Shown in pieces: positions 8,350 through 53,227 of a stretch of 64,000 nt of DNA. The translations under genes were made by a program, and so were the position numbers. Location of the stretch: NCBI RefSeq assembly GCF_048403405.1, contig NZ_CP183129.1. One strand, written 5' to 3'. The stretch is from Escherichia coli (GTDB lineage Bacteria > Pseudomonadota > Gammaproteobacteria > Enterobacterales > Enterobacteriaceae). The notes beneath the pieces are model-generated. The model had not been told where the DNA came from and did no database searches. It worked only from the letters and a program-made list of their open reading frames with translations. Numbering within the stretch: the first letter of the stretch is position 1; each line of letters starts with the position of its first letter.

Positions 8350-8547
8350 ATGTCAGAAACTATTACGGTGAATTGCCCAACCTGCGGGAAAACGGTGGTG
8401 TGGGGTGAAATCAGCCCGTTTCGGCCATTTTGTTCCAAACGTTGCCAGCTGATCGACCTCGGAGAATGGGCTGCTGAAGAAAAACGAATCCCCAGCAGTG
8501 GCGATCTTTCCGAAAGCGATGACTGGAGCGAAGAGCCAAAGCAGTGA
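8350..8547 (+). CDS. yacG: DNA gyrase inhibitor YacG (65 aa), zinc-binding
   Basis: CPTCGK...CSKRCQ zinc-finger cysteines in ORF translation. Confidence 0.93.
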
Positions 8548-8553
8548 CATTTT

Positions 8554-8748
8554 GTCTGATGCGACGCTGGCCTGATAAGACGCGGGCAGCGTCGCATCAG
8601 GCATCGTGTGCAAATGTCGGATGCGATGTGAACGCCTTATCCGACCTACAAGACCTTACATATCAACGTATTAAAATTATAGATACTGATAAGACGCGCC
8701 AGCGTCGCATCGGACATCTTGTGCAAATGTTGGATGCGGCATAAACAC
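8554..8748. repeat. BIME/REP cluster (several palindromic units) between yacG and mutT
   Basis: Repeated gcctgatgcgacgc / gcgtcgcatcaggc / ggatgcg...cttatccgacctac palindromic-unit motifs. Confidence 0.8.
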
Positions 8749-9147
8749 CTATCCGACGTACACGCGCTTAAGCTTCGCAATTACCGGTTCATTGGCTGGC
8801 GGAAACTCATCGGCATTAAGACCGACCAGCGACATCCACTTACCGGGTTGCCCTTCTTTACCCCACGGCTCCCCTTCCCAGCTTTCGACCAGCCAGAACC
8901 ACAGTGTTATATGCCTGTCCGGGAATTCATATTCGAGTTTTTCAAATAGCGAAAAATGTTGTGGGGTAATCCCGACTTCTTCCTGAAGTTCACGCACCAC
9001 CGCCTGTTCCGGCGTTTCACCCATTTCAATTTTACCGCCGGGAAACTCCAGTTTATTCGCCATGTGCGCATCTGCTGCGCGACGGGTTATAAAGATTTCA
9101 TTGTTCTCGTTGCGAATAATACCTACCGCAATTTGCAGCTTTTTCAT
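8749..9147 (-). CDS. mutT: 8-oxo-dGTP diphosphatase MutT (132 aa here; C-terminus differs from K-12)
   Basis: Nudix box GGKIEMGETPEQAVVRELQEEVG; last codons lie inside a REP palindromic unit. Confidence 0.93.
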   Translation of the reverse strand: MKKLQIAVGIIRNENNEIFITRRAADAHMANKLEFPGGKIEMGETPEQAVVRELQEEVGITPQHFSLFEKLEYEFPDRHITLWFWLVESWEGEPWGKEGQPGKWMSLVGLNADEFPPANEPVIAKLKRVYVG

Positions 9148-9161
9148 TGTCTTAAACCTAT

Positions 9162-9189
9162 AAAAAAGGCGCAGAATCCTGCGCCTTTT
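9162..9189 (-). terminator. Rho-independent terminator downstream of secA
   Basis: Stem aaaggcgcag/ctgcgccttt followed by a T-run on the minus strand. Confidence 0.6.
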
Positions 9190-9206
9190 ACTTCAACTGT
9201 TAGCTT

Positions 9207-11912
9207 TTATTGCAGGCGACCATGGCACTGCTTGTATTTTTTACCAGAACCGCACGGGCAAGGATCGTTACGTCCTACTTTACGTTCACCGGTTTGCGCC
9301 GCCAGTGCAGCAGCGGCTGCAGAGTCGTCATCCTGATGGCTAAGCTGCTGCATCTGCGCTAAACGCTCGGCTTCCATACGACGCTGTTGTTCCAGCTCCT
9401 CAACCTCTTCAGGCATACGTACCTGAACTTTGCTCAGCGTACTGATAACTTCATATTTCAACGACTCCAGCATCGCTGCAAACATGGAGAACGATTCACG
9501 TTTGTATTCCTGCTTCGGATCTTTCTGTGCATAGCCACGCAGGTGGATACCCTGACGCAGATAGTCCATCGCTGCCAGGTGCTCTTTCCACAGGGAGTCA
9601 AGCGTTTGCAGCATGACGCCTTTCTCGAAGTGACGCATCATCTCTGCACCAACCACTTCTTCTTTACGCTGATACACTTCGATGGACTGCGCCAGAATGC
9701 GCTCACGCAGCGTCTCTTCATGCAGTTCTGGTTCTTTATCCAGCCACTCGGCAATTGGCAAATCAAGGTCGAAATCGTTCTTCAGACGTTCCTGCAGCCC
9801 CGGAATATCCCACATTTCTTCCAGCGACTGTGGTGGAATGTAGGCATCAATGGTCGCTTTGAACACATCTTCACGAATGCTGTTGATGGTTTCGCTCACA
9901 TCGCTGACATCCAGCAGTTCGTTACGCTGGGAGTAAATGGCGCGACGCTGATCGTTAGCCACGTCATCATATTCCAGCAGTTGCTTACGAATGTCGAAGT
10001 TACGACTTTCAACTTTACGCTGGGCGTTGGCAATCGCTTTAGTCACCCACGGGTGTTCAATGGCTTCGCCTGGCTTCATACCCAGTTTACGCATCATGCC
10101 GGATACTCGGTCGGAAGCAAAAATACGCATCAGCGCATCTTCCATCGACAGGTAGAAACGGGAAGAACCAGCATCCCCCTGACGACCAGAGCGACCGCGC
10201 AACTGGTTATCGATACGACGGGATTCGTGACGCTCGGTACCGATGATATGCAGGCCACCTGCTGCCAGTACCGCATCGTGACGTACCTGCCAGTCGGCTT
10301 TAATTTTTTCAATTTGCTCTGCGGTCGGATTTTCCAGCGCGGCAACTTCTGCCTGCCAGCTACCACCGAGCACAATATCTGTACCACGACCCGCCATGTT
10401 GGTCGCGATAGTCACCGCAGCCGGATAACCTGCCTGAGCAACAATCGCCGCTTCGTTGGCGTGGAATTTGGCGTTCAGGACGTTGTGCTTAATACCGGCT
10501 TTGGTCAGTTCGTTTGACACCAGCTCAGATTTTTCGATGGAGATAGTACCCACCAGCACCGGCTGGCCTTTCGCAGTACGTTCTTTGATATCTTCAATGA
10601 TCGCCTGAATTTTTTCTGCTTCAGTCATGTAGACCAGGTCCGGCAGATCTTTACGAATCATTGGACGGTTGGTCGGAACAACGACGGTATCCAGCTTGTA
10701 GATGGAGCTGAATTCGAAAGCTTCGGTATCAGCAGTACCGGTCATCCCCGCCAGTTTTTCATACAGACGGAAGTAGTTCTGGAAGGTGATCGAAGCCAGC
10801 GTTTGGTTTTCGTTCTGGATCTGCACACCTTCTTTCGCTTCCACAGCCTGGTGCAGACCATCGGACCAGCGACGGCCCTGCATGGTACGACCGGTGTGTT
10901 CGTCAACGATGATAACTTCACCATCTTTAACGATGTAGTCGACGTCACGGGTAAACAGCGCATGAGCGCGCAGCGCCGCCGTTACGTGGTGCATCAGCAT
11001 GATGTTTGCCGGAGAGTACAGAGACTCCCCTTCATCCATGATGCCTTCTTTCACCAGCAGTTCTTCAATCAGGACCAGACCACGTTCGGTCAGGTTCACC
11101 TGGCGAGATTTTTCGTCCACCGAGAAGTGGCCTTCGCCCTGGAAGGTTTCGGAGTCTTCTTTTTCCTGACGGATCAGGTGCGGAATAATTTTATTCACGC
11201 GTTTATACATTTCCGAGCTGTCTTCTGCCGGGCCGGAAATGATCAGCGGTGTACGCGCTTCATCGATCAGGATGGAGTCCACTTCGTCCACCAGCGCATA
11301 GTGCAGTTTACGCTGTACACGTTCTTCAGGGCTGAACGCCATGTTATCGCGCAGGTAGTCAAAGCCGTATTCGTTGTTCGTACCGTAAGTGATGTCAGCT
11401 GCGTAAGCTTCACGCTTCGCCGGTGCTGGCATGCCCGGCAGGTTGATACCGACAGTCAGGCCAAGGAATTCAAACAGCGGACGGTTGTTTTCGGCGTCAC
11501 GTTGCGCCAGGTAGTCGTTGACGGTAACAACGTGTACGCCCTTACCGGTTAATGCGTTCAGGTAAGCAGGCAGCGTTGCGGTCAGGGTTTTACCTTCACC
11601 GGTACGCATTTCGGCGATGCAGCGTTCGTTAAGAACCATACCGCCGAGTAACTGAACGTCGAAGTGACGCATACCAAAGACGCGCTTACTTGCCTCACGC
11701 ACCACGGCGAAAGCTTCCGGGATCAGATTTTCCAGCACTTCGCCTTTTTCCAGACGTGCACGAAACTCTGCGGTTTTCCCTTTCAGTTCTTCGTCGGAGA
11801 GTTTTTCCATCTCCGGTTCCATGGCATTGATGATGTTAACCACTTTGCGCATCCGGCGCAGGGTGCGATCGTTACGACTACCGAAAACTTTAGTTAATAA
11901 TTTGATTAGCAT
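9207..11912 (-). CDS. secA: Preprotein translocase ATPase SecA (901 aa)
   Basis: Full-length ORF, C-terminal zinc site [14 protein letters not shown]. Confidence 0.98.
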
Positions 11913-53146: not shown

Positions 53147-53227
53147 CCTGATGCGACGCTGGCGCGTCTTATCAGGCCTACACGCTGTGATTTTGTAGGC
53201 CGGATAAGCAAAGCGCATCCGGCATTG
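53147..53227. repeat. BIME/REP palindromic units between araA and araD
   Basis: gcctgatgcgacgctggcgcgtcttatcaggcctac and gtaggccggataagcaaagcgcatccggc. Confidence 0.8.

What the first reader, a model, noticed from the sequence alone, without database searches (positions are those of the whole stretch)
8745..8770. mutT C-terminus is encoded by a REP palindromic unit
The last codons of mutT (...KRVYVG-stop) lie within a REP element of the yacG-mutT BIME cluster, giving a C-terminus that differs from what I remember for K-12 (...KRL). This is an example of REP sequence turnover remodelling a protein end.
Basis: partly seen in the sequence, partly recalled or inferred. Interest (0 to 1): 0.25.

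Follow-up and report, generated by a model that had tools for sequence, protein, structure and literature searches.

The report
mutT reads three codons into REP
In this E. coli strain the mutT gene has lost its usual stop codon and reads three extra codons into an adjacent repeat element before a second, repeat-encoded stop, a common and probably harmless natural variant found in about a third of E. coli genomes.

Summary
mutT (window 8749..9147, minus strand) encodes 132 aa ending ...AKLKRVYVG-TAG, whereas K-12 MutT has 129 aa ending ...AKLKRL-TAG. The Tyr, Val and Gly codons and the stop lie inside a Y-type REP, the outer unit of the second of two REP pairs (BIMEs) between yacG and mutT.

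No REP was gained, lost or replaced at the gene end. The same REP sits at the same place in every Escherichia species examined, and K-12's own TAG is the "GTAG" tail of that REP.

The 132-aa allele differs by point changes (CTG TAG to GTG TAY). Translation then continues through GTC GGA to the in-frame TAA of the REP's conserved GGATAAGG motif. In the window a 1-nt deletion makes that stop TAG.

Five Escherichia outgroups all have 129 aa, so the extension is derived. Diagnostic 30-mers place the stop-loss haplotypes in 1,707 of 5,426 complete E. coli genomes (including O157:H7, Nissle 1917 and the type strain) and the 129-aa haplotypes in 3,194. PGAP annotates the 132-aa product.

The MutT tail is hypervariable across Enterobacteriaceae, so the change is probably neutral. 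This is an ordinary polymorphism of low interest.

The parts
8749..9147 (-). mutT (8-oxo-dGTP diphosphatase) CDS, 132-aa allele ending KRVYVG-TAG
   Evidence: ORF list. It matches K-12 MutT structures (1mut, 3a6s and others) over residues 1-129 at E 1e-84. PGAP annotates the same 399-nt CDS in the 100%-identical strain TUM14771 as WP_000736024.1.
8749..8761 (-). REP-encoded end of mutT: last base of the Val129 codon, Tyr130 (TAC), Val131 (GTC), Gly132 (GGA) and stop (TAG)
   Evidence: Sequence; overlap with the REP match at 8732-8761 and with the naRNA4 alignment that ends at 8758.
8732..8761 (+). Decayed Y-type REP (palindromic unit), outer unit of BIME 2. In mRNA sense it reads GUAC GUC GGA UAG GUG UUUA UGCC G CAUCC.
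   Evidence: Consensus match with 5 substitutions and 1 deletion. Its hairpin is only -8.1 kcal/mol with z +0.24. The orthologous unit of the O157-type allele folds at -20.6 kcal/mol, z -4.9.
8685..8716 (-). Z-type REP, inner unit of BIME 2
   Evidence: Inverted and direct repeats D1, D2 and I2; second hairpin of the naRNA4 alignment.
8683..8758 (-). BIME unit 2 (Y + Z REP pair), which overlaps the mutT stop and last three codons
   Evidence: Rfam RF02564 naRNA4 at 45.3 bits, E 3.4e-7, model positions 1-77 of 77, below the gathering score of 59.5.
8569..8646 (-). BIME unit 1 (Z + Y REP pair), fully intergenic
   Evidence: Rfam RF02564 naRNA4 at 67 bits, above the gathering score of 59.5; consensus Y match at 8618-8649 with 2 mismatches.
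8553..8572 (+). Partial REP arm 5 nt after the yacG stop
   Evidence: Inverted repeats I1 and I2.
8350..8547 (+). yacG (DNA gyrase inhibitor) CDS, convergent with mutT
   Evidence: ORF list; annotation in homologous records.

Best explanation
A Y-type REP has abutted the 3' end of mutT since before the Escherichia species diverged. Read on the mutT strand, its consensus is G-TAG-GCC-GGA-TAA-GG, which carries two stop codons in one frame, nine bases apart. That frame is mutT's frame.

In the ancestral 129-aa allele (K-12, phylogroup A/B1-type strains and the other Escherichia species) translation ends at the first of these positions, in the REP tail. In the window's allele that TAG has mutated to TAC (TAT in other lineages), and the preceding Leu codon CTG has become GTG. 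Ribosomes therefore read three more codons, Tyr-Val-Gly, along the 5' arm of the REP hairpin and stop at the second REP stop. That stop is TAA in most strains and TAG here, because one base of GGATAAGG is deleted.

The result is MutT with L129V plus a YVG extension on the end of its C-terminal helix. This tail is unconstrained in the family, so the change is most likely selectively neutral. The REP copy in this window is also degenerate and has lost most of its hairpin stability.

Shown here: the anatomy, the allele differences, the outgroup states and the allele frequencies. Inferred: neutrality, and any effect on termination or mRNA stability.
For: 1. Anatomy is established.

2. Fifteen E. 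coli strains aligned have a collinear REP. They fall into two end types: CTG TAG (KRL*, with one KCL* variant) and GTG TAY GTC/GCC GGA TAA/TAG (KRVYVG* or KRVYAG*).

3. The outgroups E. albertii (KRM-TAG), E. whittamii (RRL-TAA), Escherichia sp. MOD1-EC7003 (KRF-TAA), E1V33 (KRL-TAG) and SCPM-O-B-8794 (KRL-TAG) are all 129 aa. In each the stop is followed directly by gtcggataa/gtcagataa.

4. Diagnostic 30-mers count 206 + 564 + 937 = 1,707 genomes with stop-loss haplotypes and 1,377 + 1,817 = 3,194 with 129-aa haplotypes, out of 5,426. An evenly spaced sample agrees, at about 21 of 60 against 39 of 60.

5. PGAP annotates 399-nt mutT CDSs in these strains.

6. After PVIxKL the MutT tail is hypervariable in sequence and length (129-133 aa) across Citrobacter, Salmonella, Klebsiella, Enterobacter and others.

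7. Hairpin energies are -8.1 kcal/mol for the window, -13.1 for K-12, -20.5 for the B1-type and -20.6 for the O157-type.
Against: 1. The direction of change rests on five outgroup genomes and on parsimony. The 132-aa allele occurs in B2, E and other early-branching E. coli groups, so the A/B1 129-aa allele could be a reversion or a recombinational import rather than simple retention. No tree or recombination test was run.

2. The 30-mers do not cover the terminal stop. That all 1,707 genomes end after VY[VA]G is extrapolated from 8 sequenced representatives.

3. 525 genomes remain unclassified.

4. Neutrality is inferred from tail variability, not measured. No proteomic evidence for the extended C-terminus was examined.
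Confidence: 0.85

Rival explanations
1. REP turnover: insertion, replacement or excision of a REP at the mutT 3' end swapped in a new C-terminus.
For: The yacG-mutT spacer does vary in REP content. A 113-nt BIME unit is present in the window and in K-12 but absent in AUSMDU00002545 and KOr019. Only 2,618 of 5,424 matching genomes cover at least 80% of the two-unit query.
Against: The variable unit lies on the yacG side. The REP touching mutT is present and collinear in every E. coli and Escherichia sequence examined. One-unit and two-unit strains share the same KRVYVG end (KOr019 and the window). The allele difference is two or three point substitutions, not an indel or a new junction.
Confidence: 0.05
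2. Sequencing or assembly artefact, or a strain-private mutation of no population relevance.
For: None beyond the fact that the K-12 reference differs.
Against: 206 complete genomes carry the identical 30-mer and 1,707 carry stop-loss haplotypes. These include O157:H7, Nissle 1917 and the type strain ATCC 11775.
Confidence: 0.01
3. Regulatory allele. Moving the stop codon from the foot of the REP hairpin into its 5' arm changes ribosome behaviour at termination (stalling and tmRNA tagging, as reported for REPs within 15 nt of a stop by Liang, Rudd and Deutscher, Mol Cell 2015) or the REP's protection of the mRNA 3' end. That would tune MutT dosage and hence mutation rate between lineages.
For: The REP starts 0 nt from the stop in the 129-aa allele and contains the stop in the 132-aa allele. 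Hairpin strength varies widely among alleles, from -8.1 to -20.6 kcal/mol. REPs between convergent genes correlate with raised expression, and REPs can act as terminators and stabilisers (abstract of bioRxiv 10.64898/2026.03.23.713779). PMC6815119 cites REP regulation of termination.
Against: Nothing here measures expression. Both alleles place the hairpin within the footprint of a terminating ribosome, so any effect may be the same in both. The window's REP is degenerate, with a fold no better than shuffles. A second hairpin (Z unit) and another BIME lie downstream and could serve as the 3' barrier. The Liang et al. paper could not be read, so the 15-nt rule comes from my memory.
Confidence: 0.08

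Closest known systems
REP / BIME elements of E. coli (Y and Z palindromic units; Rfam RF02564 naRNA4 models one REP pair of REP325)
   Same: The sequence matches the Y consensus, is paired with an inverted Z unit across a short linker, is tandemly duplicated as a 113-nt unit, and lies between convergent genes at mRNA 3' ends.
   Different: The outer unit is not extragenic: 13 nt of it are mutT coding sequence plus the stop. This copy is decayed, with a 1-nt deletion, mismatched stem and -8.1 kcal/mol hairpin, and scores below the Rfam gathering threshold.
Small repeat elements fused to or extending the 3' ends of ORFs (reviewed by Delihas 2011, PMC3184786, citing Delihas 2007, Croucher 2011 and Hot 2011)
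   Same: Repeat-element sequence supplies the last codons and the stop of a chromosomal gene (for the review's statement; for this case).
   Different: In the cases described there, the repeat's own open reading frame becomes fused to the chromosomal gene. Here the repeat was already in place, and a stop-codon point mutation let translation run three codons into it.
REP sequences close to stop codons that modulate translation termination (Liang, Rudd, Deutscher 2015, Mol Cell 58:431; cited in PMC6815119)
   Same: A REP hairpin lies within 15 nt of a stop codon (here distance zero, or overlapping).
   Different: No stalling, cleavage or tmRNA tagging has been shown for mutT. I could not read the paper to see whether mutT is in its list.
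K-12 MutT (NudA), 129 aa, PDB 1mut / 3a6s and others
   Same: Nearly identical over residues 1-129. By direct reading against the alignment the differences are R89S, E103K, D114E and L129V. The Nudix box GGKIEMGETPEQAVVRELQEEVGI is intact.
   Different: Three extra C-terminal residues (YVG). All 23 PDB entries with E. coli MutT use the 129-aa form.

Membership tests
REP (Y-type palindromic unit) / BIME | Sequence match to the ~35-nt Y consensus | tested here: met
   8732-8761 matches with 5 substitutions and 1 deletion in 31 nt. There was 1 hit in 25 shuffled windows against 3 observed. The orthologous copies in other strains are near-consensus.
REP (Y-type palindromic unit) / BIME | Imperfect palindrome able to form a stable stem-loop | tested here: not met
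   The window copy folds at -8.1 kcal/mol with z +0.24. The orthologous O157-type and B1-type copies fold at -20.6 and -20.5 kcal/mol, z -4.9 and -3.7. This is a decayed member by descent.
REP (Y-type palindromic unit) / BIME | Arranged with an inverted partner REP across a short linker (BIME) | tested here: met
   The Z unit at 8685-8716 is inverted relative to the Y unit at 8732-8761. The naRNA4 model aligns to both hairpins over positions 1-77 of 77.
REP (Y-type palindromic unit) / BIME | Extragenic location | tested here: not met
   13 nt (8749-8761) overlap the mutT CDS. In the 129-aa allele only the stop and one base overlap.
Rfam RF02564 naRNA4 | Score at or above the gathering threshold of 59.5 bits | tested here: not met
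   The unit that overlaps mutT scores 45.3 bits. The neighbouring unit at 8569-8646 scores 67 bits and passes.
MutT / NudA 8-oxo-dGTP diphosphatase | Full-length homology to E. coli MutT with an intact Nudix box | tested here: met
   E 1e-84 to 1mut over residues 1-129. The Nudix motif is read directly from the translation. Synteny secA-mutT-yacG-zapD-coaE is preserved.
REP-mediated control of translation termination (Liang et al. 2015) | REP within 15 nt downstream of the stop codon | tested here: met
   The stop lies inside the REP. The criterion itself is recalled from memory because the paper is not held.
REP-mediated control of translation termination (Liang et al. 2015) | Ribosome stalling, mRNA cleavage and tmRNA tagging of the product | not testable with these tools
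   This needs SsrA-tag detection or ribosome profiling.

The most novel reading that the evidence does not exclude
The two mutT alleles are not equivalent. Placing the stop codon inside rather than at the foot of the REP hairpin, together with lineage-specific decay of that hairpin, changes termination efficiency, tmRNA tagging or mRNA 3'-end protection. MutT dosage, and with it the A:T to C:G mutation rate, would then differ heritably between E. coli phylogroups.
Probability: 0.06. Interest if true: 0.45.

Novelty: new member of a known kind. Interest (0 to 1): 0.12.

Why it matters
The finding matters little on its own. It shows that the K-12 reference form of MutT (129 aa, the only form with solved structures) is one of two common natural alleles. 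It also shows that a 'repetitive extragenic' element can supply coding sequence.

The one instructive point is that a Y-type REP in this orientation carries two in-frame stops (TAG and TAA, nine bases apart). It therefore acts as a built-in tandem terminator that limits read-through to three residues when the first stop is lost.

The case would become more interesting only if stop position within the hairpin were shown to alter the level of an antimutator enzyme.

Tried and rejected
1. I tried to read Liang, Rudd and Deutscher 2015 by DOI and by PMC4427526. Neither is held. I confirmed only the citation and its gist through PMC6815119.

2. Literature searches for mutT with REP or C-terminus found no paper describing this overlap. 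The 2026 REP preprint does not mention mutT or stop codons.

3. Folding the whole 111-nt mutT 3' region gave no structure better than shuffles for the window (z -1.0) or for K-12 (z +0.1). Single-unit folds were more informative. My first K-12 range cut off the 3' arm and was redone.

4. The simple terminator scan found no intrinsic terminator in the yacG-mutT spacer.

5. The MG1655 RefSeq record in this collection lists no REP features for the spacer, so curated REP names could not be taken from it.

6. The sequencing-artefact reading was considered and rejected.

7. I did not determine the window strain's phylogroup, build a tree or test for recombination.

Full report
**What is there.** The region is the conserved coaE-zapD-yacG / mutT-secA neighbourhood of E. 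coli (ORFs; matching annotation).
- mutT occupies 8749..9147 on the minus strand and encodes 132 aa ending ...PVIAKLKRVYVG, followed by TAG.
- A strain that is 100% identical over 631 nt (TUM14771) has this same 399-nt CDS annotated by PGAP as WP_000736024.1.
- K-12 mutT is 390 nt, or 129 aa, ending ...AKLKRL-TAG.
- All 23 PDB entries for E. coli MutT use the 129-aa form, and the window protein aligns to it over residues 1-129 at E 1e-84.

**The repeat.** The 201-nt yacG-mutT spacer holds a partial REP arm (8553-8572) and two REP pairs.
- Each pair is an inverted Z-type unit plus a Y-type unit, and the two pairs form a 113-nt direct repeat.
- The Rfam model naRNA4, built on a REP pair from REP325, aligns end to end to both pairs. 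Pair 1 at 8569-8646 scores 67 bits, above the gathering score of 59.5. Pair 2 at 8683-8758 scores 45.3 bits (E 3.4e-7), below it.
- A fuzzy match to the Y consensus places the outer unit at 8732-8761 with 5 substitutions and 1 deletion. At that tolerance 25 shuffled windows gave one hit in total, against three observed.
- On the + strand the mutT stop is 8749-8751, Gly 8752-8754, Val 8755-8757, Tyr 8758-8760 and the preceding Val 8761-8763. So YVG and the stop are REP sequence, the first Val codon only touches the REP's last base, and K and R lie outside it.
- The other two REPs detected in the window (53149-53181 and 60176-60206) lie 26 and 22 nt beyond the nearest stop codons and are fully extragenic.

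**How the two alleles differ.** I fetched 15 E. coli representatives spanning the identity classes of two searches and aligned their 3' ends.
- The REP next to mutT is present and collinear in all of them.
- The 129-aa alleles read, in mRNA sense, AAR CGY CTG TAG GTC RGA TAA GGC. The TAG is the GTAG tail of the REP, so K-12's stop is itself REP-derived.
- The 132-aa alleles read AAG CGY GTG TAY GTC (or GCC) GGA TAA GG, giving KRVYVG, or KRVYAG in B2 strains such as F11.
- The difference is a stop-codon substitution (TAG to TAC or TAT) plus a linked CTG to GTG change. It is not an insertion, deletion or new junction.
- The new stop is the TAA inside the REP's conserved GGATAAGG motif. In the window and its close relatives one base of that motif is deleted (GGATAGG), which still leaves TAG in frame.
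- Reading the consensus directly, G-TAG-GCC-GGA-TAA-GG holds two stops in one frame nine bases apart. That frame is mutT's, so the REP acts as a tandem stop that caps read-through at three residues.

**Direction and frequency.** A scan of species-representative genomes returned five non-coli Escherichia lineages. All have 129 aa with the stop at the same position, followed directly by gtcggataa or gtcagataa: E. albertii KRM-TAG, E. whittamii RRL-TAA, MOD1-EC7003 KRF-TAA, E1V33 KRL-TAG and SCPM-O-B-8794 KRL-TAG.
- The REP therefore predates E. coli, and the 132-aa form is most simply a derived stop loss.
- Diagnostic 30-mers need a 28-nt exact word that spans the stop site and the Leu/Val site. 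They count 206 window-type, 564 O157-type and 937 B2-type genomes, or 1,707 stop-loss genomes.
- The same method counts 1,377 B1-type and 1,817 K-12-type genomes, or 3,194 with 129 aa, out of 5,426. The remaining 525 are unclassified.
- An evenly spaced 60-row sample classified by identity and length gave about 21 against 39.
- Carriers of the long allele include O157:H7, O145, Nissle 1917 and the type strain ATCC 11775.
- The long allele sits in B2 and E, and the short one in A and B1. Reversion or recombination may therefore have shaped the distribution, but I did not test this.

**Turnover.** Genuine REP turnover exists in this spacer. The 113-nt unit is absent in AUSMDU00002545 and KOr019, and only 2,618 of 5,424 matching genomes cover at least 80% of the two-unit query. 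It affects the yacG-proximal unit, however. KOr019 has one unit and the window has two, yet both end in the same KRVYVG.

**Likely consequence.** Beyond Escherichia, the MutT tail after PVIxKL varies freely in sequence and length, from 129 to 133 aa. Examples are KLIAG, KLRQCAH, KLIKRF, KLKQQYPAS and RLIADARAR. This argues that L129V plus YVG is tolerated.
- At the RNA level the REP hairpin differs greatly among alleles: -20.6 kcal/mol (O157-type), -20.5 (B1-type), -13.1 (K-12) and -8.1 in the window, where it is no better than shuffles.
- The window copy is therefore a decaying REP whose stem is partly translated.
- REPs can stabilise upstream mRNA, attenuate transcription and, between convergent genes, correlate with higher expression (abstract of bioRxiv 10.64898/2026.03.23.713779).
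- REPs near stop codons are reported to affect termination (Liang et al. 2015, cited in PMC6815119). That paper is not held, so its details come from my memory.
- Whether the stop's position inside or beside the hairpin alters MutT output is untested. I rate that reading at under 10%.

**Comparison with known things.** Repeat elements that extend the 3' ends of genes are a recognised phenomenon (Delihas 2011, PMC3184786).
- This case belongs to that kind, with the twist that the extension arose by stop loss into a pre-existing REP.
- The protein variant is already in RefSeq.
- I found no paper describing the mutT-REP overlap, but it is a minor polymorphism.

**Verdict.** This is an ordinary variant of low interest.

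Noticed in passing
window 9162-9231 (-): Rfam STnc40 (a Salmonella sRNA family) matches at 81.7 bits against a gathering score of 45. The match spans the secA stop and the secA-mutT spacer and includes the hairpin AAAAGGCGCAGAATCCTGCGCCTTTT, so a terminator-like element or 3'-derived sRNA sits just upstream of mutT.
   Followed up: no
window 8569-8646 versus loci L003 and L004: The yacG-mutT spacer has either one or two 113-nt BIME units among E. coli strains. Roughly half of the complete genomes cover the two-unit form. This is real REP copy-number turnover, but it is independent of the MutT end.
   Followed up: partly
L011 and L012 (strains SMN152SH1 and E70), at the mutT stop: A 7-bp tandem duplication (CTACAGA CTACAGA on the + strand) sits exactly at the stop/REP-tail junction. 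The protein still ends KRL-TAG.
   Followed up: no
L013 (strain R32_14_1F): This divergent strain has an internally deleted REP next to mutT (TGTTGGATGCCTTAACCGATCTAC), and its MutT ends KCL-TAG. Its yacG product also differs (WP_000005043.1).
   Followed up: no
L029 (QXHL01000193.1, 424 bp): A 424-bp contig labelled Alicyclobacillaceae bacterium I2511 encodes an enterobacterial-type MutT at 79% identity, with coverage 0.83 in the contig name. It is probably contamination in that assembly.
   Followed up: no
window 8545-8572: The yacG stop (TGA, 8545-8547) is only 5 nt from a partial REP arm. Both convergent genes therefore end essentially at REP sequence.
   Followed up: no
L018 (Escherichia sp. 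E1V33), downstream of mutT: This GTDB-distinct Escherichia genome carries a mutT 3' end and REP haplotype almost identical to the K-12 type (gtcagataaggc.ttttcgccgcatcc). That hints at a shared or exchanged haplotype across lineage boundaries.
   Followed up: no
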